Assembly: GCF_050320075.1 (NCBI RefSeq) | Contig: NZ_CP190018.1 | Reading direction: 5' to 3' (one strand) | DNA from: Escherichia coli | GTDB lineage: Bacteria; Pseudomonadota; Gammaproteobacteria; Enterobacterales; Enterobacteriaceae | Length of the DNA: 64,000 nucleotides | Shown: piece by piece, positions 19,805-32,700 of the stretch | Numbering within the stretch: position 1 is the first letter of the stretch | How the letters are laid out: every line of letters begins with the position of its first letter | Translations under genes and position numbers: made by a program | Notes under the pieces: model-generated | What the model was told of the DNA's origin: nothing | Database searches by the model: none | The model's input: the letters and a program-made list of their open reading frames with translations, nothing else

Positions 19805-19908
19805 GGTGAACAGTGGTGAACAGACGGTGAACAGTCATTACTGCGATTGTTCACCCTTTAACTTACTGTATTACTTATCTTTTTTCTTATGGTGAACAGA
19901 GGTGAACA
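19805..19908. other. ori-like iteron cluster: six copies of the TGTTCACC octamer (either strand) in about 105 bp
   Basis: GGTGAACA at 19805, 19815, 19826, 19891, 19901 and TGTTCACC at 19849; about 5 kb from the crr-like repeats. Confidence 0.65.
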
Positions 19909-19987
19909 GTAAAATATAAAAAAACAAACAGTAAGCCGGTTTTTCCTGCGACCTTTTCCTGGCTTGCCGGTCTGAGGATGAGTCTCC

Positions 19988-20005
19988 TGTGTCAGGACTG
20001 GCACA
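19988..20005 (+). promoter_or_regulatory. Candidate Ogr/Delta activator site (TGT-N12-ACA) of a P2/P4-type late promoter upstream of sid
   Basis: TGTgtcaggactggcACA centred about 80 bp upstream of the sid ATG. Confidence 0.5.
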
Positions 20006-20077
20006 TCTGCAATGCGTCGTGTTGTTGTCCGGTGTACGTCACAATTTTCTTAACCTGAAGTGACGAGGAGCCGGAAA

Positions 20078-20812
20078 ATGTCTGACAACACCATCCCTGA
20101 ATATCTGCAACCCGCACTGGCACAACTGGAAAAGGCCAGAGCCGCCCACCTTGAGAACGCCCGCCTGATGGATGAGACCGTCACGGCCATTGAACGGGCA
20201 GAGCAGGAAAAAAATGCGCTGGCGCAGGCCGACGGAAACGACGCTGACGACTGGCGCACGGCCTTTCGTGCAGCCGGTGGTGTCCTGAGCGATGAGCTGA
20301 AACAGCGCCACATTGAGCGCGTGGCACGCCGGGAGCTGGTACAGGAATATGACAATCTGGCCGTGGTGCTGAATTTTGAACGTGAACGCCTGAAAGGGGC
20401 GTGTGACAGCACGGCCACCGCCTACCGGAAGGCACATCATCACCTTCTGAGTCTGTATGCAGAGAATGAGCTGGAACACGCCCTGAATGAAACCTGTGAG
20501 GCGCTTGTCCGGGCAATGCATCTGAGTATCCTGGTACAGGAAAATCCGCTCGCCAACACCACCGGCCATCAGGGCTACGTCGCACCCGATAAAGCTGTCA
20601 TGCAGCAGGTGAAATCATCGCTGGAACAGAAAATTAAACAGATGCAAATCAGCCTCAGCGGTGAGCCGGTTCTCCGGCTGGCAGGACTGTCAGCGGCAAC
20701 ACTCCCGCACATGGATTATGAGGTGGCAGGCACACCGGCACAGCGCAAGGTGTGGCAGGACAAAATAGACCAGCAGGGAGCAGAGCTTAAGGCCAGAGGG
20801 CTGCTGTCATGA
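20078..20812 (+). CDS. sid: Sid-like capsid size determination (external scaffold) protein, 244 aa
   Basis: Starts MSDNTIPEYLQPALAQLEKARAAHLENARLMDE; 244 aa from the ATG at 20078 (RBS GAGGAG) equals P4 Sid as recalled; followed by delta and psu. The ORF-track start at 20060 is six codons too far upstream. Confidence 0.75.
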   Translation: MSDNTIPEYLQPALAQLEKARAAHLENARLMDETVTAIERAEQEKNALAQADGNDADDWRTAFRAAGGVLSDELKQRHIERVARRELVQEYDNLAVVLNFERERLKGACDSTATAYRKAHHHLLSLYAENELEHALNETCEALVRAMHLSILVQENPLANTTGHQGYVAPDKAVMQQVKSSLEQKIKQMQISLSGEPVLRLAGLSAATLPHMDYEVAGTPAQRKVWQDKIDQQGAELKARGLLS

Positions 20813-21054
20813 TGCGCTGCCCTTTCTGTCGTCATTCAGCGCATACCCGCACCAGCCGGTATGTGAGTGACAATGTCAAAGAAAGTTATCTGCAGTGCCA
20901 GAATATTTACTGTTCGGCGACATTTAAAACGCATGAGTCAATTTGTGCCGTGATTCGTTCTCCGGTCACGGAGGAAAAACCAGCACCGGCAAGCACAGCA
21001 CCGGCTGTTGTCCGAAAAGTTAAAGGCTGTTACAGCTCACCATTCAACCATTAA
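20809..21054 (+). CDS. Ogr/Delta-family zinc-finger late-gene transcription activator (81 aa, single domain)
   Basis: C-X2-C-X22-C-X4-C pattern (CPFC ... CQNIYC); start overlaps the sid stop (ATGA). Confidence 0.75.
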   Translation: MMRCPFCRHSAHTRTSRYVSDNVKESYLQCQNIYCSATFKTHESICAVIRSPVTEEKPAPASTAPAVVRKVKGCYSSPFNH

Positions 21055-21068
21055 TCAGGAGACGGGGT

Positions 21069-21641
21069 GTGACCACAATGTCATTACAGCAGGCTTTTGA
21101 GGTCTGCCAGAATAACAAAGCGGCATGGCTGCAACGCAAAAATGAGCTGGCTGCAGCCGAACAGGAATATCTGCGGCTTCTGTCCGGGGAAGGCAGAAAC
21201 GTCAGCCGCCTGGACGAATTACGCAATATTATCGAAGTCAGAAAATGGCAGGTGAATCAGGCCGCCGGTCGTTATATTCGTTCGCATGAAGCCGTTCAGC
21301 ACATCAGCATCCGCGAGCGGCTGAATGATTTTATGCAGCAGCACGGCACAGCACTGGCGGCCGCACTGGCACCGGAGCTGATGGGCTACAGTGAGCTGAC
21401 GGCCATTGCCCGAAACTGTGCCATACAGCGTGCCACAGATGCCCTGCGTGAAGCCCTTCTGTCCTGGCTTGCGAAGGGGGAAAAAATTAATTATTCCGCG
21501 CAGGATAGCGACATTTTAACGACCATCGGATTCAGGCCTGACGCGGCTTCGGTGGATGACAACCGTGAAAAATTCACCCCTGCGCAGAACATGATTTTTT
21601 CGCGTAAAAGTGCGCAACTGGCATCACGTCAGTCTGTGTAA
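21069..21641 (+). CDS. psu: Psu-like protein (polarity suppression / capsid decoration), 190 aa
   Basis: 190 aa as for P4 Psu; sequence (QQAFEVCQNNKAAWLQRKNELAAAEQEYLRLLSGEGRNVSRLDELRN) matches my recollection of Psu; last gene of the sid-delta-psu block. Confidence 0.75.
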   Translation: MTTMSLQQAFEVCQNNKAAWLQRKNELAAAEQEYLRLLSGEGRNVSRLDELRNIIEVRKWQVNQAAGRYIRSHEAVQHISIRERLNDFMQQHGTALAAALAPELMGYSELTAIARNCAIQRATDALREALLSWLAKGEKINYSAQDSDILTTIGFRPDAASVDDNREKFTPAQNMIFSRKSAQLASRQSV

Positions 21642-21805
21642 AATTCCCCGAAAATCCGCCCGTTTTTACTGAAAAAAGCCATGCATCGATAAGGTGCATG
21701 GCTTTGCATGCGTTTTCCTGCCTCATTTTCTGCAGACCGCGCCATTCCCGGCGCGGTCTGAGCGTGTCAGTGCAACTGCATTAAAACCGCCCCGCAAAGC
21801 GGGCG

Positions 21806-21824
21806 GGCGAGGCGGGGAAAGCAC
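21806..21824. other. P2/P4-type cos site (19-nt cohesive-end sequence GGCGAGGCGGGGAAAGCAC)
   Basis: Exact match to the P2-type cohesive end as recalled, immediately downstream of psu and preceded by GC-rich hairpins. Confidence 0.7.
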
Positions 21825-21842
21825 TGCGCGCTAGGAACGAAA

Positions 21843-24563
21843 TTATTTGTAATTATTTATTATCTCTTCAATCTTCAAAAGTGCTTGTGAGAAATCACTT
21901 AATTTCCGTGTGTTGACTATATAGCGTAATAAACCTCTGATTGTCTCTGCTTCTGAGTTAAATCTAAATCCTTTATAGTTTTCAACAAGCTTGGATACTT
22001 TCTCAGGAAGATTGTCATAGCTGTCTGAAATCTCTGATGCTAATAAAAATAATTCAAATTTAATCTTTCTTTCTTCATTGAAATCAGTTGTGGAAATATT
22101 TTTGATAAATGATTTTATTTTATCTCTATTCTTTTCTGTTGATATTCTGTACAGATCATATAGTATTGTTTCAGCAGCTCTTGCTTTATCTGTATTCGGA
22201 TAAGAACTAATTTCATGAAGTAATTTATCGACCTTGCTGTCGTCTTCTATATTAACGCCCAGTTTTTTGGCTACTGAAAAAATATTAGCAAGGCCTCTAT
22301 TGACTATAGCTATCACCTCATACCTACCAAGGTTTCTACTTATTAACTTATCGAGAATCGTGTATATTAAAGTTTTTATGCTGTCAGTGGATAAAGTTTC
22401 ACTGTGGGTGTTGTACCTTATAACGACATATTCGGAAATAGCATCATAGAATGCTAGGTTGTGGTATGAGGACTTTAAAGTGTCGTTTAATGTTTTTAAT
22501 ACTACCGCGTCTTGCTCTGTGGTTATTTTCATTAAAGATAGTAGTTTTAATGCGTTGATTAACTTTCCTTCTATAGGGTTGAGAAACGTAGCGAACTTGC
22601 TATATGACTTCGCTAGGTTTTGCAGTACAGTATTTATTAACCAATCTAATTCTTTGGGTTGAACAGACAGCGATAATAGTTTTTTATCTTCTTTCCTTAG
22701 TATAAGAGATAGGGTTTTATTATCAATGTATTTAATGCATGAATATAATTCTAATCTTGTTAGAGAAATCTCGTCTTTATCAGAATCCTTGATTATTTTT
22801 ATTTCAATGAATTTGCGAATCACATCCTTGAATTCTTTATAAACATCAATTAAACATCCATTTTTTACAACAAAAATTATAAGGTTTTCGAAAAGAAATT
22901 CCGTTTTATGAAGATCCCCGTCAACTAATAACTTTGTATTTCTTTTTCTTATATCGCTATACTTTGTTAATAATGAGCTAACGGTGTAGTGAAGATTTAA
23001 TAAATAATTAAAGGTTACTAAATCATAGATTACGGAGACGGTTTTTTTTATATTTCTCGGTAAGTTATCATATAATTCATGAATTTTATTCTCCTCAAGA
23101 GTTGAGTATCTTTCTCTATTAATTGAAAAATCATACTTCAATCTATTCAAAATAATATTTTGATTGAAAAGCGATATGAGAATATTTGCATAGTCCTTTT
23201 GTCTGATCTCTTCTGATAATTCCTCCTCTATAATACTGTAAGCCTCATCGTATTTATTTAACTGGAAGCAATTATATTTCTTAGTCTTGTCTATACTATT
23301 TGCAACCTTATGGGGGCGTGTATAGGTAACTATTTCGTTATAGTTGAAATTAATTTCCTTATCTATTTTAATTAATGAATCATTTGGTAGCACTTCAGTA
23401 ATCAGTAGCACTTCATCATGTTTATCGTTTAAAACAATACCATATATACTTGCTTTTTTTAATATAAAAAATAATTTTTGGAGATGCGGCTTATAGTCTT
23501 TAACTTTTTTATCATTACTGAGTATACTCAAAAACTTCTTATAAAATCCTCTTAGCTCTATATTATTATCATTAGAGGTTACTTCGGTGTCATAAAATTG
23601 CAATAAAGCTTTTGGTCCATTGTCATCAATATACATTAAACCGCAATTAGTGAAACATCTGGTAACTTGTTCAGCAAGTATTGCATTTAACGATTGAAGA
23701 GATCTCACTCTTGAATAAATAGCATTAATTATTTCGATATCATCTAAGTCTGCACATAGTTCTAGGCTATTTAGGCTATGCAGGAAAGTATATAACTTGT
23801 TTGAATATGAATTGTTATTGAAAGGTTTGATTGTTTCATCGGTTAAAATAATAGTGGTTATACCATGACTTTCAAGATATTTTCTTTGAGCAGGAATATC
23901 TTCGAATACTACTAAATACATAGGGGGTCTAACAGATGAATGATTCTGAGTCCATTTAATTATTTGCTTTAGATCTATATCATTATATGAATACCCCAAA
24001 AATAGCACAGTATGGGTGGAAATAACACTTTTAACATAATTTTCAATTAAGGGAAAATTGAAGCTATAATTTAAGTAATCATCTTCTTTAAAGACGATGT
24101 TGTGATTTTTAAAATCACCATGCATTTTTATCAATTTTTTGCCAAGGTAAGATTTCATCAAATCTTTGTCACTGCTTATTATATTATAAAAGTAAGATTT
24201 GGCATTTATAGCTGCTTCAAGCAAAGTGTCCCAATTCGTTGTGATAACAGAGTGAGGATTCAGTTTAAATATTAGATCGTGAATCTTTGAATGGGGAACA
24301 TTTTCAGGAAAGAAATCTTTGATTCTTTTGTAGTAAAGATGCTCACCAAATGTGAGGTAATAAAGCTGTGCTATTTTTAAATAATCTGATTCATCTTTGA
24401 TATTGAGATCTGAAATGAGAGTGTCAATTAAGTCCCCCCATGAAGGCATTTTGATAGTTTTTGTTTCAGAGGATTTTGAAACACCAGCCCCTACAAAAAT
24501 AGCTAAAGACTCCTCATCTTTTGCTCTTAAAATACTAGCTATATGTTTGTTTAGCAAATCCAT
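21843..24563 (-). CDS. Cargo gene in the satellite cos-int slot: 906-aa protein with N-terminal SIR2-like domain and long helical C-terminal region; candidate antiphage NAD+-depleting defence protein (DSR-like)
   Basis: N-terminal motifs FVGAGVS, VITTNWD, KMHGDF, LFLGYSYNDIDL resemble SIR2_2-type domains; the remaining ~650 aa are low-complexity helical repeats. Strongly AT-rich relative to the prophage backbone. Sits between cos and int. Confidence 0.55.
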   Translation of the reverse strand: MDLLNKHIASILRAKDEESLAIFVGAGVSKSSETKTIKMPSWGDLIDTLISDLNIKDESDYLKIAQLYYLTFGEHLYYKRIKDFFPENVPHSKIHDLIFKLNPHSVITTNWDTLLEAAINAKSYFYNIISSDKDLMKSYLGKKLIKMHGDFKNHNIVFKEDDYLNYSFNFPLIENYVKSVISTHTVLFLGYSYNDIDLKQIIKWTQNHSSVRPPMYLVVFEDIPAQRKYLESHGITTIILTDETIKPFNNNSYSNKLYTFLHSLNSLELCADLDDIEIINAIYSRVRSLQSLNAILAEQVTRCFTNCGLMYIDDNGPKALLQFYDTEVTSNDNNIELRGFYKKFLSILSNDKKVKDYKPHLQKLFFILKKASIYGIVLNDKHDEVLLITEVLPNDSLIKIDKEINFNYNEIVTYTRPHKVANSIDKTKKYNCFQLNKYDEAYSIIEEELSEEIRQKDYANILISLFNQNIILNRLKYDFSINRERYSTLEENKIHELYDNLPRNIKKTVSVIYDLVTFNYLLNLHYTVSSLLTKYSDIRKRNTKLLVDGDLHKTEFLFENLIIFVVKNGCLIDVYKEFKDVIRKFIEIKIIKDSDKDEISLTRLELYSCIKYIDNKTLSLILRKEDKKLLSLSVQPKELDWLINTVLQNLAKSYSKFATFLNPIEGKLINALKLLSLMKITTEQDAVVLKTLNDTLKSSYHNLAFYDAISEYVVIRYNTHSETLSTDSIKTLIYTILDKLISRNLGRYEVIAIVNRGLANIFSVAKKLGVNIEDDSKVDKLLHEISSYPNTDKARAAETILYDLYRISTEKNRDKIKSFIKNISTTDFNEERKIKFELFLLASEISDSYDNLPEKVSKLVENYKGFRFNSEAETIRGLLRYIVNTRKLSDFSQALLKIEEIINNYK

Positions 24564-24575
24564 TGTATATACCTC

Positions 24576-25739
24576 TCAATATAATTTATCTGAATACCAT
24601 TGCATCATTTTTTTTCTATGTTCAAGATATTGAGCATGATTGTAAGTCCCTCGGATTCTGTTTTTATCAACATGTGCCAATTGTATTTCAATCCATGCGC
24701 TATCAAACCCTTGTTCGTGCAATATTGTCGACATGGTATGCCGAAAACCGTGACCTGTAGCACGGCCTTTGTAGCCAATTAACTCAATCACTTGTGAAAC
24801 ACTTTCTTTTGAGATTGGCTTGCTGCGGTTGTTCCTGCCAATAAAGATGTAAGGGTAATGGCCGGTAATAGGTTTGAGCTGTTTGAAAAGGTCAACTACC
24901 TGAGTAGATAAAGGAACAATGTGAGGTCTACGCATTTTCATACGTTCCGCTGGTATCTCCCATATACCTTTTTCGAGGTCTACTTCTTCCCACGTAGCAA
25001 AGCGCATCTCCTGCGTTCTTACACCAGTCAGCATGACTATCTTCGTAGCATTTTTGGTGATGATGCTACCGGTATACGCTTCAAGATCTCGAATAAAATG
25101 AGGCAACTCTTCAGCGGATAAAAATGGATGGTGTTTTTGCTTGGGAACGGCCAGAGCGATAGCTAAATCAGGTGCAGGATTGTACTCAGCACGGCCAGTT
25201 ATGATTGCATAGCGATAAACCTCACCGCATCTTTGACGCACCTTGCGTGTTTTCTCTAGTGCTCCACGTTTTTCGATTCGTCGTAATACTTCAAGCAGTT
25301 CTAATGGTTTGATTTCACTGATAGGACGTTTACCAATGAACGGGAAGACATCTTGCTCGAATGTCTTAATGATTTCTTCTCGATAGGCCACAGTCCAGCG
25401 GTCAGCTTTGTTGGTATGCCATTCTCGACATATTGCTTCGAAAGAATTTTCTGTTGATAGCTTTTGGGCGAGTCTTAAAGCTTTGCGTTCCTCTACCGGG
25501 TCAATGCCATTAGCAACCTGCTTACGGGCGATATCACGCTTCTCACGTGCTTCTGCGAGGCTTACTAAATCGTAGCTGCCAAATGACATTAACCGCGCTT
25601 TCCCTGCAAACCGGAAACGGAAACGCCAGCCTTTCGAGCCATCGGGATTGATAAGCAATGACAGACCTTGTCCATCGTTCAATGTGTATGGCTTGTCTTG
25701 TGGTTTTGCACGTTTGATCTGTATATCGGTGAGAGCCAT
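24576..25739 (-). CDS. int: P4-family tyrosine integrase (387 aa)
   Basis: N-terminal MALTDIQIKRAKP...GKARLMSFGSYDLVSLAEAREKR and C-terminal catalytic region (HGFRHTMSTILHEQG ... RGTYNH); adjacent to the tRNA target. Confidence 0.9.
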   Translation of the reverse strand: MALTDIQIKRAKPQDKPYTLNDGQGLSLLINPDGSKGWRFRFRFAGKARLMSFGSYDLVSLAEAREKRDIARKQVANGIDPVEERKALRLAQKLSTENSFEAICREWHTNKADRWTVAYREEIIKTFEQDVFPFIGKRPISEIKPLELLEVLRRIEKRGALEKTRKVRQRCGEVYRYAIITGRAEYNPAPDLAIALAVPKQKHHPFLSAEELPHFIRDLEAYTGSIITKNATKIVMLTGVRTQEMRFATWEEVDLEKGIWEIPAERMKMRRPHIVPLSTQVVDLFKQLKPITGHYPYIFIGRNNRSKPISKESVSQVIELIGYKGRATGHGFRHTMSTILHEQGFDSAWIEIQLAHVDKNRIRGTYNHAQYLEHRKKMMQWYSDKLY

Positions 25740-25901
25740 GTGTATAACTGAAAACTACTTATAAAAAATCTATACACATTACTATACATATTTTTCGCGG
25801 ATTTAGGGAGACGATCTCGGACTGTTACGGATAAGATGATTATTCATCATATTGAATATAAAGGGTTTTATGGATCATCTCGGAACTGGCTGGATGAAGT
25901 T

Positions 25902-25996
25902 TGGCGGAAGATCACAGGAGTCGAACCTGCCCGGGACCGCTGGCGGCCCCAACTGGATTTGAAGTCCAGCCGCCTCACCGGAGACGACGATCTTCC
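25902..25996 (-). tRNA. selC: tRNA-Sec (selenocysteine tRNA), intact, 95 nt
   Basis: Reverse complement matches my recollection of E. coli selC from GGAAGATCGTCGTCTCC... to ...GATCTTCCGCCA. Confidence 0.95.
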
Positions 25997-29999: not shown

Positions 30000-30013
30000 T
30001 CTATTGAAGAATG

Positions 30014-30044
30014 CCGGATACGAATGGTTTTGTGTCGTATCCGG
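30014..30044. terminator. Stem-loop (10-bp arms CCGGATACGA / TCGTATCCGG) just after yicI; possible terminator
   Basis: Inverted repeat read directly; not followed by a clear T-run. Confidence 0.35.
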
Positions 30045-30293
30045 TAAATAATCTCACATCTGGTAATAAATATTTCTTCCATCGTATTTGCGAGCATGAT
30101 CACGATTATTCATCACGAAAATGTGATCTGTGCCGAAAAATATCTATTAACCGCCCCGTTTTGTTTTATACATGTCCGGACTACGGACAGATTTTAGTAT
30201 TGTTGTGAAATTATTCTGCTTTATATTTACCCTCAGAGATGGCAACTGAAGCTCTTCCACATGGGGCTTCTTAATCTGTGATAAGGGTAAAAA

Positions 30294-31847
30294 ATGCAAA
30301 TGATTACCTCGCGACAAAACAGATTATTACGATTCCTTTTACCACGAAGGGAATATACGACTATTGTTACGATTGCCGGCTATTTAAATGTTTCGGAAAA
30401 AACCATTCAACGTGATTTACGTTTACTTGAGCAATGGCTGGAACAATGGCGAATAACCGTTGAGAAGCGTGCTGGCGCGGGTGTGATGTTAGACTCGAAG
30501 AATATTACTGATTTGCTGCATCTTGATCATTTGTTGGGAGCAGAATGTGAAGAGATTGATGGTGTAATGAATAATGCCAGGCGCGTTAAAATAGCGTCGC
30601 AGTTATTAAGTGAAACACCGAATGAAACGTCGATCAGTAAATTGTCAGAGCGCTATTTTATCAGTGGAGCCTCTATTGTTAATGACCTGAGAGTGATTGA
30701 GTCCTGGCTTGCGCCGTTGGGGTTATCATTGATCCGCAGCCCAAGTGGTACGCATATTGAAGGTAGTGAAGGGCAAGTCCGACAGGCAATGGCATTACTG
30801 ATTAACGGCATTATTAACCATAATGAGCCGCAAGGTGTCGTGTATTCACGTCTGGATCCCGGAAGTTATAAAGCATTAGTCCATTATTTTGGAGAAGAAG
30901 AGGTGTTATTTGTCCAGTCATTGTTACTGGATATGGAAAATGAATTAAGTTGGTCTTTGGGAGAGCCTTATTACGTTAACATTTTTACTCACATCCTTAT
31001 TATGATGTATCGCAACACGCACGGGAATGCGTTATCCAGAGAAGAAGATCAAACCAGGCAATATGATGAAAATATCTTTAATGTTGCCAGTCAGATGATT
31101 CATAAGATAGAACAACGAATTGCACATACATTGCCCGATGATGAAGTCTGGTTTATTTATCAATATATCATTTCATCAGGTGTGGCGATTGATGGACAAA
31201 AAGATGTGAGCATTATTTCACATATGCAGGCCAGCAATGAAGCGCGTCTGATTACCTGGCGTTTAATTACGGTATTCAGTGACATCGTGGACTGCGATTT
31301 TAGTGAAGACAGCGCATTATATGATGGCTTGTTGGTTCATATTAAGCCGCTGATTAACCGACTAAATTATCGCATTCATATCCGTAATCCATTGCTGGAA
31401 GATATTAAAGCAGAATTAGCGGATGTCTGGCGGTTGACGCAATATGTGGTGAATCAGGTATTTAAAACCTGGGGTGAGAATGCAGTGAGCGAGGATGAAG
31501 TAGGTTACCTGACCGTTCATTTTCAGGCTGCGATGGAGCGGCAAATTGCCCGTAAACGTGTATTACTGGTCTGTTCAACCGGAATCGGAACTTCGCATCT
31601 ACTGAAAAGCCGTATTCTGCGAGCATTTCCTGAATGGACGATTGTTGATGTTATTTCAGCAGCGAATTTATCACAGGTTTTGCCTGACAATATCGAACTG
31701 ATTATTTCGACCATTAATTTGCCTACAGTCACTATGCCGGTCGCTTATGTTACCGCTTTTTTTAATGATGCCGATATTAAGCGGGTCACTGAAATGGTGA
31801 TTACGGAAAAATTACATCATGCGACATCTCGGGTCGTTGAAATTTAA
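30294..31847 (+). CDS. PRD-domain transcriptional regulator (BglG/LicR/MtlR-like: N-terminal HTH, PRD region, C-terminal EIIB-like domain)
   Basis: 517 aa; HTH (TIVTIAGYLNVSEKTIQRDLRLLEQ) and C-terminal KRVLLVCSTGIGTSHLL EIIB-like motif. Confidence 0.75.
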   Translation: MQMITSRQNRLLRFLLPRREYTTIVTIAGYLNVSEKTIQRDLRLLEQWLEQWRITVEKRAGAGVMLDSKNITDLLHLDHLLGAECEEIDGVMNNARRVKIASQLLSETPNETSISKLSERYFISGASIVNDLRVIESWLAPLGLSLIRSPSGTHIEGSEGQVRQAMALLINGIINHNEPQGVVYSRLDPGSYKALVHYFGEEEVLFVQSLLLDMENELSWSLGEPYYVNIFTHILIMMYRNTHGNALSREEDQTRQYDENIFNVASQMIHKIEQRIAHTLPDDEVWFIYQYIISSGVAIDGQKDVSIISHMQASNEARLITWRLITVFSDIVDCDFSEDSALYDGLLVHIKPLINRLNYRIHIRNPLLEDIKAELADVWRLTQYVVNQVFKTWGENAVSEDEVGYLTVHFQAAMERQIARKRVLLVCSTGIGTSHLLKSRILRAFPEWTIVDVISAANLSQVLPDNIELIISTINLPTVTMPVAYVTAFFNDADIKRVTEMVITEKLHHATSRVVEI

Positions 31848-31873
31848 TGTCAGAATTTTATGAGGTATGACGA

Positions 31874-32344
31874 ATGGACATAACAAAAATCCTGAATACG
31901 AATCGCGTTATTTTAGATATGCAAGCGACGAATAAAGCGGAGGCGATTGAAGAATTAACTAATCTTCTCAAAAAAGATGGTGCGATCGATTGTCGGGAAA
32001 CCTTTATTAAAGATGTCTGGCAGCGCGAAGCGGAAGGCTCGACTGGTTTTGAAAATCATATTGCGATCCCGCATGGTAAATCTTCTGCGGTAATTAATAC
32101 CACGCTGGCTATCGGGCGTACCCGGCAGGATATTCCCTGGGAAACACTGGATGGCAGTAGCGTACGCTGTATTATTTTATTTGCGGTACGTCTTGAAGAT
32201 CAAAATACCACTCATATCCGTTTACTTTCCCAGGTCGCGGGCGCGCTTGCAGATGATGACATCATAGCGCAATTGCTGGTTGAGACGAGCCCGCAAAAAA
32301 TCATTGATCTCTTTAGTCAGTATGCACAATCCGATGTCTACTAA
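31874..32344 (+). CDS. PTS EIIA component, fructose/mannitol (EIIA-2) family
   Basis: 156 aa; conserved HIAIPHGK histidine motif. Confidence 0.8.
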   Translation: MDITKILNTNRVILDMQATNKAEAIEELTNLLKKDGAIDCRETFIKDVWQREAEGSTGFENHIAIPHGKSSAVINTTLAIGRTRQDIPWETLDGSSVRCIILFAVRLEDQNTTHIRLLSQVAGALADDDIIAQLLVETSPQKIIDLFSQYAQSDVY

Positions 32345-32361
32345 ATAACAGGGAGTATATC

Positions 32362-32676
32362 ATGAATATTGTCTGTGTTGCCGCCTGCACGGCGGGTATT
32401 GCTCACACCTATATTGCTCGTGAAAAGTTAATTAAAGGGGCAAAAGCACTGGGCCACACCATTAAAGTTGAAACCCAGGGAACCATTGGTACAGAAAACG
32501 AATTACAGGCGGCAGAGATCTCTGCTGCTGACGTCGTGATTCTTGCTGTGGATGTGAAAATAAAAGGAGAAGAACGTTTTACCAATAAACGCATTGTGCG
32601 AGTAAAGACAGAGATCGTCATTAAATCGCCCGTTCAATTTCTTGAAAAGGTCGAAAAATCACTGGGAAATAAATGA
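32362..32676 (+). CDS. PTS EIIB component, fructose type
   Basis: 104 aa; active-site cysteine context VAACTAGIAHTYIA. Confidence 0.8.
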   Translation: MNIVCVAACTAGIAHTYIAREKLIKGAKALGHTIKVETQGTIGTENELQAAEISAADVVILAVDVKIKGEERFTNKRIVRVKTEIVIKSPVQFLEKVEKSLGNK

Positions 32677-32700
32677 TCCTTATACTGGAGGGATCTTAAT

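What the first reader, a model, noticed from the sequence alone, without database searches (positions are those of the whole stretch)
21843..24576. Cargo gene is strongly AT-rich and sits 12 bp downstream of int
The 2.7-kb cargo ORF is conspicuously AT-rich (long runs such as aaatttat, frequent Lys/Asn/Ile codons), whereas the flanking satellite genes (alpha, sid, psu) are GC-rich. This points to recent acquisition from a low-GC donor by cassette exchange in the hotspot. The int stop (24576) is only 12 bp from the cargo start (24563) on the same strand, so the cargo may be co-transcribed with int or use a promoter embedded in the int 3' end.
Basis: seen in the sequence. Interest (0 to 1): 0.4.

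Follow-up and report, generated by a model that had tools for sequence, protein, structure and literature searches.

The report
DSR2-like sirtuin defence gene in P4 satellite
The AT-rich gene next to the integrase is a phage-defence enzyme of the DSR2 sirtuin family, sitting in the already described swap-slot of a P4-like satellite; its low GC is a long-standing trait of this gene family, not a sign of recent arrival.

Summary
ORF 21843-24563 (-) has 29.9% GC (GC3 27.6%), against 56.3% for the satellite backbone, and is the lowest-GC 2.7-kb stretch in the window. It starts 12 nt after the int stop codon.

The setting is an 11.3-kb P4-like satellite at selC in E. coli SMS-3-5. The gene fills the known int-cos/psu defence hotspot. 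Rousset et al. 2022 already list this exact protein (WP_000365012) there.

The protein is a full-length homologue of Bacillus DSR2, a phage-triggered NADase. A family profile matches DSR2 at E 1e-88 over residues 28-911, an AlphaFold2 model matches at TM 0.58-0.73, and the catalytic Asn and His are invariant. An 82%-identical orthologue, labelled "ThsA", protected E. coli in a 2026 preprint.

Cassette exchange is supported: 450 E. coli genomes share this int type and only 31 carry this cargo. Homology breaks just past cos and inside the int 3' tail.

"Recent acquisition from a low-GC donor" is not supported. Orthologues down to 40% identity keep 27.5-30.5% GC, almost all beside P4-type integrases, and every cargo examined in this slot is AT-rich.

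Co-transcription with int is plausible but untested. Overall this is ordinary: a new member of a known kind.

The parts
25902..25996 (-). tRNA-SeC (selC), the integration target
   Evidence: ARAGORN; RefSeq annotation
25900..25922 (.). attL core: 23-bp repeat TTTGGCGGAAGATCACAGGAGTC overlapping the 3' end of selC
   Evidence: Exact repeat search
14641..14663 (.). attR core: second copy of the 23-bp repeat. The element spans 14641-25922 (11.28 kb).
24576..25739 (-). P4-type tyrosine integrase, 387 aa. It is a mosaic: the 5' part tracks the selC site and host, and the last ~100 nt tracks the cargo.
   Evidence: Pfam Arm-DNA-bind_3, Phage_int_M and Phage_integrase; binned identities
24564..24575 (-). 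12-nt int-cargo spacer. The Shine-Dalgarno sequence GAGAGG overlaps the int TGA, 7-8 nt before the ATG.
   Evidence: Sequence
23679..24563 (-). Cargo N-terminal SIR2 NADase domain (residues 1-295), with catalytic N110 and H148
   Evidence: Pfam SIR2_2; match to DSR2 residues 34-325, E 9e-38; N110 and H148 invariant in 76 homologues
21843..23678 (-). Cargo middle and C-terminal helical (alpha-solenoid-like) domains, residues 296-906, plus the stop codon. Presumed sensor part.
   Evidence: Profile match continues to DSR2 residue 911; AF2 model pLDDT 87.8; full-length Foldseek matches to DSR2
21808..21826 (.). cos core GGCGAGGCGGGGAAAGCAC. It marks the left edge of the variable slot; homology to other P4-like elements ends at ~21831-21835.
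   Evidence: Sequence, identified as the P2/P4 cos core from my own knowledge; alignment end-points
21787..21806 (-). G+C-rich hairpin followed by TTTT, next to cos. Candidate terminator for leftward int-cargo transcription.
   Evidence: Terminator-like scan. Consensus match only.
21078..21641 (+). psu
   Evidence: RefSeq annotation
20809..21054 (+). delta (Ogr/Delta zinc finger)
20078..20812 (+). sid-like gene
   Evidence: Position, and comparison with the P4 gene map
15140..17473 (-). alpha primase-helicase, 777 aa

Best explanation
The 906-aa cargo is a single-gene anti-phage system of the DSR2 (defence-associated sirtuin 2) family. It sits in the int-cos/psu defence hotspot of an 11.3-kb P4-like satellite integrated at selC.

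By homology, it should behave as follows. It stays inactive in the lysogen. When its C-terminal helical domain binds a phage structural protein (the tail tube protein of a siphovirus, in Bacillus DSR2), the N-terminal SIR2 domain hydrolyses NAD+ and aborts the infection.

Its AT-richness and rare-codon load are stable traits of this gene family and of cargo in this slot generally. They are not a mark of recent import.

The cassette is exchanged between satellites by recombination. One edge lies immediately beside cos. The other lies inside the last ~60-200 nt of int, so the integrase C-terminal codons and stop codon travel with the cargo.

The gene is most likely transcribed with int as a two-gene operon and terminated at the conserved hairpin next to cos.

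Shown here: domain homology, predicted fold, catalytic residues, genomic anatomy, composition and breakpoints. Inferred: NADase activation, the nature of the trigger, and the transcription unit.
For: Identity of the protein:
- A single-sequence search hits DSR2 at E 9e-38 over the SIR2 domain.
- A profile of 76 family members hits DSR2 at E 1e-88, in one stretch from profile 6-876 to DSR2 28-911.
- The AF2 model (pLDDT 87.8, pTM 0.81) has DSR2 chains as all 50 of its best PDB matches. For the 46 long chains TM is 0.54-0.73 over ~700-1050 aligned columns; ranks 47-50 are ~270-residue SIR2-only chains.
- N110 and H148 align with DSR2 N133 and H171 and are invariant.
- No partner gene lies between cos and int.

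Defence function:
- An orthologue 82.1% identical to the cargo (and 99.8% identical to Salmonella P0010) was cloned as pFD414. It gave plating efficiencies of 1.4e-5 and 3.3e-5 on Bas18.
- It gave 0.03-0.12 on Drexlerviridae Bas01, Bas11 and Bas13, and had no consistent effect on P2-like phages (bioRxiv 10.64898/2026.02.27.708500, File S4).
- Identity to that orthologue falls from 90% in the SIR2 domain to 75% in the C-terminal domain, as expected for a sensor under an arms race.

Hotspot:
- Rousset 2022 Table S1A lists NC_010498 / SIR2_2 / WP_000365012.
- Six sibling elements carry six different cargos.
- The breakpoints are at cos and in the int tail.
- In L015 and L016 the orthologue moved together with a ~250-nt remnant of the int 3' end.

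Composition.

Operon.
Against: - This exact protein has not been tested.
- The PADLOC Dsr2 model does not score it; PADLOC calls only a ThsA-type SIR2 domain.
- Overall identity to Bacillus DSR2 is only 17-19%, and the protein is ~100 aa shorter, so the trigger could be a different phage protein.
- Bas18 was equally blocked by an unrelated construct, pFD415, with identical counts. That phenotype may therefore not be specific.
- Orthologues with no intact int upstream (L015, L019) keep intact ORFs. Expression therefore cannot depend on int transcription everywhere.
- Neither an int promoter nor an internal promoter reached the consensus threshold.
Confidence: 0.75

Rival explanations
1. One reading: the gene was recently imported into this satellite from a low-GC organism and has not yet drifted towards host composition.
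For: - GC is 0.299 against 0.563 for the backbone, with extreme rare-codon use.
- Within E. coli the cargo is nearly clonal: 31 genomes at 99.2-100% identity.
- Some distant relatives (29-35% identical) lie in low-GC contigs. In L025 the gene is 0.232 GC and its flanks 0.261. DSR2 itself comes from Bacillus.
Against: - Orthologues at 82 to 40% identity all keep GC 0.275-0.305. They sit in P4-like satellites, or beside selC or ssrA, in hosts with 0.44-0.57 GC flanks.
- All named close homologues are from Enterobacterales.
- Every cargo examined in this slot, including that of canonical P4, is AT-rich. Composition therefore carries no timing information here.
Confidence: 0.1
2. The gene has its own promoter inside the int 3' end, which travels with the cassette, and is not co-transcribed with int. 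This could also hold in addition to co-transcription.
For: - The last ~100 nt of int co-vary with the cargo rather than with the body of int.
- In L015 and L016 an intact orthologue sits behind only a decayed ~250-nt int remnant. That remnant carries TTGAAT-17-TATAGT about 100 nt upstream of the ATG.
- The block ATGGTATTCNGATAAA, 20-25 nt before the ATG, is unchanged even in that remnant.
Against: - No site reaches 9 of 12 consensus matches in the window's int 3' end.
- The L015 site is no more than chance would give: 2 found against 1.5 expected.
- The conserved block also encodes the int QWY motif.
- Only one independent remnant is available.
Confidence: 0.3
3. It is an orphan or minimised Thoeris ThsA effector, activated by a cyclic-ADPR-type signal. 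This is how the 2026 preprint and PADLOC label it.
For: The best PADLOC hits are ThsA models, E 4e-27. The preprint names the orthologue 'ThsA::Thoeris'.
Against: - The ThsA hits cover only the SIR2 part, profile positions 9-213 of 478.
- No SLOG/STALD domain is detected.
- No ThsB/TIR gene is present in the element.
- The rest of the protein matches the DSR2 middle and C-terminal domains by profile and by fold.
Confidence: 0.05
4. It is a SIR2 protein with a non-defence role, such as protein deacylation for satellite or host regulation.
For: RefSeq calls it only 'SIR2 family protein'. One homologue is named 'NAD-dependent protein deacylase'.
Against: - It has the DSR2 architecture.
- It sits in a defence hotspot.
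- The orthologue has an anti-phage phenotype.
Confidence: 0.03

Closest known systems
DSR2 of Bacillus subtilis 29R (Garb et al., bioRxiv 10.1101/2021.12.14.472415; structures such as PDB 8k98 and 8wyb, PMC10981675, PMC11850899)
   Same: - It is a single large protein with an N-terminal SIR2 NADase domain and the same catalytic Asn and His.
- Its helical middle and C-terminal domains are alignable over ~870 positions (E 1e-88).
- The predicted fold is the same (TM up to 0.73).
- The orthologue protects against siphoviruses.
   Different: - Overall identity is only 17-19%, and the protein is ~100 aa shorter.
- It is not recognised by the PADLOC Dsr2 model.
- It is carried by a P4-like satellite in Enterobacterales, not in a Bacillus genome.
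- Its trigger, oligomeric state and any phage inhibitor are unknown.
P4-like satellite int-psu/cos defence hotspot (Rousset et al. 2022, PMC9122126; bioRxiv 10.64898/2026.02.27.708500)
   Same: The slot is the same, between int and cos/psu. This very locus and protein are in their Table S1A. The rapid cassette swapping matches their description.
   Different: They record it only as 'SIR2_2', or as 'ThsA' for the orthologue. The breakpoints (within 10 nt of cos; inside the int 3' tail) and the stable ~30% GC across orthologues are worked out here.
Canonical P4 int-cII-beta-gop region (NC_001609)
   Same: The position is the same. It is also AT-rich (0.362 against 0.561 for the backbone). cII also lies downstream of int on the same strand.
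   Different: The genes are unrelated, there are three of them on two strands, and the int-cII gap is 66 nt.
Thoeris ThsA
   Same: The SIR2 NADase domains are related (E 1e-13 to PDB 6lhx; PADLOC E 4e-27).
   Different: There is no SLOG/STALD sensor domain and no ThsB partner. The C-terminal two thirds match DSR2 instead.

Membership tests
DSR2 (defence-associated sirtuin 2) | N-terminal SIR2 domain with the catalytic Asn and His (DSR2 N133 and H171) | tested here: met
   N110 and H148 align with N133 and H171. Both are invariant in 76 homologues. Pfam SIR2_2 scores 85.6 bits.
DSR2 (defence-associated sirtuin 2) | Full-length homology, including the middle domain and the alpha-solenoid C-terminal domain | tested here: met
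   Profile against PDB: E 1e-88, one stretch, profile 6-876 to DSR2 28-911. Foldseek: all 50 best hits are DSR2 chains, TM 0.54-0.73 for the 46 long chains.
DSR2 (defence-associated sirtuin 2) | Single-gene system with no obligatory partner | tested here: met
   It is the only ORF between cos and int. The orthologue is active when cloned alone.
DSR2 (defence-associated sirtuin 2) | Anti-phage phenotype | tested here: inconclusive
   This protein has not been tested. The 82%-identical orthologue pFD414 protected against Bas18 and weakly against three Drexlerviridae, in two replicates of a preprint.
DSR2 (defence-associated sirtuin 2) | NAD+ depletion triggered by binding of a phage tail tube protein; tetrameric assembly | not testable with these tools
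   Needs biochemistry or infection assays.
DSR2 (defence-associated sirtuin 2) | Recognition by curated DSR2 models | tested here: not met
   PADLOC Dsr2 model PDLC02184 does not hit the cargo at E<=0.01. It hits only the SIR2 part of some ~1000-aa relatives. This reflects a narrow model rather than a missing feature.
Thoeris ThsA | C-terminal SLOG/STALD signal-binding domain and a ThsB (TIR) partner gene | tested here: not met
   ThsA profile matches cover only positions 9-213 of 478. Pfam finds no further domain. No TIR gene is present in the element.
P4-like satellite with int-cos/psu defence hotspot | int next to a tRNA att site; alpha, sid, delta and psu genes; a cos site; flanking att repeats; a variable cargo between int and cos | tested here: met
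   Variable cargo shown in siblings L002-L007. The locus is listed in Rousset 2022 Table S1A.

The most novel reading that the evidence does not exclude
The mobile unit of this hotspot is not the defence gene alone. It is a module made of the last ~60-250 nt of int plus the defence gene.

Each swap would then rewrite the integrase C-terminus and supply the cargo's translation signals, and possibly its transcription signals. The int tail would serve at once as the recombination homology arm, as coding sequence and as expression leader.

The ~30% GC held across orthologues down to 40% identity would be actively maintained, for example to keep a toxic NADase under H-NS or rare-codon restraint, rather than being passive history.
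Probability: 0.3. Interest if true: 0.45.

Novelty: new member of a known kind. Interest (0 to 1): 0.2.

Why it matters
The finding mainly serves as a calibration point. A striking GC drop next to an integrase in a P4-like satellite marks the known defence slot. It should not be read as evidence of recent transfer.

Three modest additions come out of the analysis:
- This catalogued 'SIR2_2' or 'ThsA-like' P4 cargo is a full-length DSR2 homologue that current PADLOC models miss. That suggests concrete experiments on tail-tube sensing and NAD+ depletion.
- The slot's recombination edges can be placed just past cos and inside the int 3' tail. This fits the cos-plus-homologous-recombination model that Rousset et al. 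proposed without breakpoints.
- The family has kept ~30% GC through deep divergence inside 45-57% GC hosts, which calls for an explanation other than recency.

Tried and rejected
- NCBIfam gave no family for the cargo.
- PADLOC gave only ThsA-type SIR2 hits. A control scan of eight relatives showed that the Dsr2 model exists but is narrow.
- The SIR2 system tested by Rousset et al. (pFR88, E. coli M605, no activity) turned out to be a different protein.
- The consensus promoter scan found nothing in the int 3' end or upstream of int in the window. It found one site in the L015 remnant, at chance level. The native promoter therefore remains unknown.
- Ghisotti et al. 1990, on transcription of the P4 non-essential region, is not held in the library.
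- The pFD414 insert is not an exact substring of L009 or L010, but its protein is 99.8% identical to P0010.
- I considered a genome-contig scan for the taxonomy of distant relatives and replaced it with cheaper contig look-ups.
Full report
**Observation**

The ORF list shows a 906-aa ORF at 21843-24563 on the minus strand and a 387-aa ORF at 24576-25739 on the same strand. The sequence shows the int TGA, then the 12 nt GAGGTATATACA, then the cargo ATG. GAGAGG straddles the stop codon and is a good Shine-Dalgarno sequence.

Sliding-window GC falls from 0.53-0.64 in the satellite backbone to 0.27-0.33 across the ORF. Per gene:
- Cargo 0.299 (GC3 0.276).
- alpha 0.608, sid 0.576, psu 0.534, delta 0.484, int 0.438.
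- Backbone 0.563; whole window 0.486.

No non-overlapping 2.7-kb stretch of the window is as low. The next lowest is 0.358.

Rare codons (AGA, AGG, ATA, CTA, CGA) run at 98 per 1000 codons, against 6-7 in the host genes yicI and yicJ. Lys, Asn and Ile together make 28% of residues.

**Context**

The window is identical to E. coli SMS-3-5, NC_010498. The element has these parts:
- tRNA-SeC at 25902-25996 on the minus strand.
- A 23-bp direct repeat at 25900-25922 and 14641-14663, which delimits an 11.28-kb element.
- int, the cargo, and the sequence GGCGAGGCGGGGAAAGCAC at 21808-21826, which I recognise as the P2/P4 cos core from my own knowledge.
- psu, delta, sid, an Icd-like gene, a DUF5375 gene and the 777-aa alpha primase.

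This is the gene order of satellite phage P4. The cargo occupies the int-cos/psu slot that Rousset et al. 2022 described as a hotspot of anti-phage systems (PMC9122126). Their Table S1A lists this exact locus and protein: NC_010498, SIR2_2, WP_000365012. They did not test it. The SIR2 gene they did test (pFR88) is a different protein.

**What the protein is**

Domain and family searches gave a partial picture:
- Pfam finds only SIR2_2, at residues 105-238.
- PADLOC's best hits are ThsA models, over the SIR2 part only.
- NCBIfam finds nothing.

Against solved structures, the single sequence hits Bacillus subtilis DSR2 at E 9e-38 over residues 12-295. Cargo N110 and H148 align with the DSR2 catalytic residues N133 and H171.

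A search of 1.8 billion cluster representatives found 469 relatives at E<=1e-30. Many are ~900-1020 aa long and alignable end to end at 25-49% identity. In an alignment of 76 of them, N110 and H148 are invariant.

The profile of that alignment hits DSR2 at E 1e-88, in one stretch from profile 6-876 to DSR2 28-911 of 1005. The homology therefore extends through the middle and C-terminal domains.

An AlphaFold2 model (pLDDT 87.8, pTM 0.81) has DSR2 chains as all 50 of its best PDB matches. For the 46 long chains TM is 0.54-0.73 over ~700-1050 aligned columns (0.58-0.73 for the 44 near-full-length ones); ranks 47-50 are ~270-residue SIR2-only chains. Sequence identity over the long chains is 17-20%.

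DSR2 is a single-protein abortive-infection system. Its SIR2 domain depletes NAD+ when its C-terminal domain binds a phage tail tube protein (abstracts: bioRxiv 10.1101/2021.12.14.472415, PMC10981675, PMC11850899).

The cargo is not a Thoeris ThsA. It has no SLOG/STALD domain and there is no ThsB gene. The PADLOC Dsr2 model exists but is narrow and misses this branch.

**Experimental support from a close relative**

[quoted passage not shown] It notes that the gene is conserved across many P4 elements and is larger than ThsA.
- I translated their insert. It is 902 aa, 99.8% identical to the Salmonella protein P0010 and 82.1% identical to the window's cargo.
- Identity to the cargo by region is 90% in SIR2, 81.5% in the middle domain and 75% in the C-terminal domain.
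- Their File S4 gives plating efficiencies of 1.4e-5 and 3.3e-5 on Bas18 (Siphoviridae).
- It gives 0.03-0.12 on Bas01, Bas11 and Bas13 (Drexlerviridae), and nothing consistent on myoviruses, podoviruses or P2-like phages.
- A caveat: an unrelated construct, pFD415, shows identical counts on Bas18.

**Cassette exchange**

The cargo occurs in 31 of 5426 complete E. coli genomes, at 99.2-100% identity. Parts of the psu-cos-int flanks occur in about 2250-2280 genomes. The selC-type int occurs in 450.

Six sibling elements at selC carry a P-loop NTPase, two hypothetical genes, a HEPN protein, a DEAD-box helicase plus a partner, an AIPR protein, or GapS4a plus a partner.

The two edges of the variable region are:
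- On the psu side, alignments end at window 21831-21835, or up to 21848 in two of the listed hits. That is 5-9 nt past cos and 8-12 nt before the cargo stop codon.
- On the int side, alignments end 3-58 nt before the int stop codon and never cross it.

int is itself a mosaic:
- Against E. coli siblings with other cargos, identity is 93-99% in the first 300 nt for four of the five (82% for L004). It is only 70-77% in the last 100 nt.
- Against SIR2-linked ints in other genera, the pattern reverses. Yersinia is 66% in the 5' part and 84% in the tail; Salmonella is 83% in both.
- The int C-terminus length and its final residues differ with each cargo.
- In a metagenomic element (L015, L016), an intact 60%-identical orthologue sits in the opposite orientation relative to sid and delta. 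It lies behind a decayed ~250-nt remnant of the int 3' end.

The exchanged module therefore runs from just past cos into the int tail. This fits the model Rousset et al. proposed: one event at cos and one by homologous recombination.

**Is the low GC a sign of recent import?**

No.
- Orthologues at 82% (Salmonella), 76% (Yersinia), 69%, 60%, 49%, 43% and 40% identity have GC 0.299, 0.292, 0.295, 0.300, 0.305, 0.275 and 0.282.
- Their GC3 is 0.246-0.309, while the surrounding DNA is 0.44-0.57 GC. In L017 the host genes reach 0.63.
- Five of the seven sit in P4-like satellites. Four of these (82%, 76%, 69%, 49%) lie directly after int, at -14, 11, 2 and -14 nt; the fifth (60%, L015) lies behind only an int remnant.
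- The 43% orthologue sits 63 nt after tRNA-SeC with no satellite left. The 40% orthologue lies next to ssrA, and in a second contig (L022) behind a frame-shifted int.
- All named close homologues are from Enterobacterales.
- Every cargo examined in this slot is AT-rich: canonical P4 at 0.362 against 0.561 for its backbone, and the six siblings at 0.343-0.375.

Composition is therefore a stable property of the family and of the slot. It says nothing about timing.

A remote low-GC origin is possible. Relatives at 29-35% identity lie in 26-40% GC contigs. That origin would predate the divergence of the satellite-borne orthologues.

It is established knowledge that phage, plasmid and defence-island genes are generally AT-richer than their hosts. 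Whether this is maintained here by selection (H-NS silencing, or rare-codon throttling of a toxic NADase) is an inference I could not test.

**Expression**

Evidence for co-transcription with int:
- The two genes are on the same strand with a 12-nt gap and no terminator between them. The Shine-Dalgarno sequence sits at the int stop codon.
- Junctions are tight or overlapping in orthologues and in most same-strand siblings: 33, -11, 19 and 4 nt.
- Canonical P4 has cII downstream of int on the same strand.
- A G+C-rich hairpin followed by TTTT on the minus strand at 21806-21787, beside cos, could end the transcript.

The consensus scan finds no sigma-70-like site in the int 3' end or upstream of int.

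Against exclusivity, intact orthologues exist without an intact int (L015, L019). The L015 remnant carries TTGAAT-17-TATAGT, though at chance frequency. The preprint's construct used pTet with inducer, so it does not settle the native promoter.

I put co-transcription at about 0.6 and an additional or alternative internal promoter at about 0.3.

**Verdict**

The cassette-exchange reading is right and was already published for this very locus. The 'recent, low-GC donor' inference is not supported.

The gene is a DSR2-family sirtuin defence protein, so it is a new member of a known kind. Interest is low. The small new points are the DSR2 assignment, the breakpoint positions and the long-term stability of the ~30% GC.

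Noticed in passing
window 14641-14663 and 25900-25922: A 23-bp direct repeat, TTTGGCGGAAGATCACAGGAGTC. One copy overlaps the 3' end of tRNA-SeC. Together they delimit the 11.28-kb satellite as attR and attL.
   Followed up: yes
window ~14422-14583 and 14000-15000: RefSeq annotates a rhuM pseudogene fragment just outside attR, in a low-GC stretch (0.36-0.39). It is probably the remnant of another island that once used selC.
   Followed up: no
window 21787-21806 (minus strand): A G+C-rich hairpin, CCGCCCGCTTTGCGGGGCGG, followed by TTTT, directly beside cos. It lies in the segment conserved across P4-like elements. It could act as a built-in terminator for whatever gene is placed in the slot in the int orientation.
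   Followed up: partly
window 24576-24780 (int 3' end): int is a mosaic. Its GC falls to 0.39 in the last quarter. Its last 100 nt are 70-77% identical to E. coli siblings, four of five of which are 93-99% identical in the first 300 nt. The same tail is 83-84% identical to the Salmonella and Yersinia ints that carry the same cargo.
   Followed up: yes
L015 5750-6000 and L016: A 60%-identical orthologue is intact behind a ~250-nt decayed remnant of the int 3' end, with in-frame stop codons. It lies on the same strand as sid and delta, and no intact int is visible. The block ATGGTATTCNGATAAA before the ATG is unchanged.
   Followed up: partly
L019 7843-10712: A 43%-identical orthologue (GC 0.275) starts 63 nt after tRNA-SeC, with no integrase and no P4 genes. 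A SymE toxin gene is nearby. This is a cargo-only remnant at selC.
   Followed up: partly
L017 16743-18266: The satellite carrying the 49%-identical orthologue also has a second, shorter SIR2_2 gene (507 aa, GC 0.34) after alpha. That is the second, minor hotspot between the primase and att.
   Followed up: no
window 14700-15130: Two long direct-repeat blocks rich in TGTTCACC-type motifs lie between attR and alpha. They resemble the P4 crr (cis replication region) repeats.
   Followed up: no
window 30000-32700: A BglG-type antiterminator and PTS genes at GC 0.39-0.43, lower than the neighbouring host genes. This may be another acquired segment.
   Followed up: no
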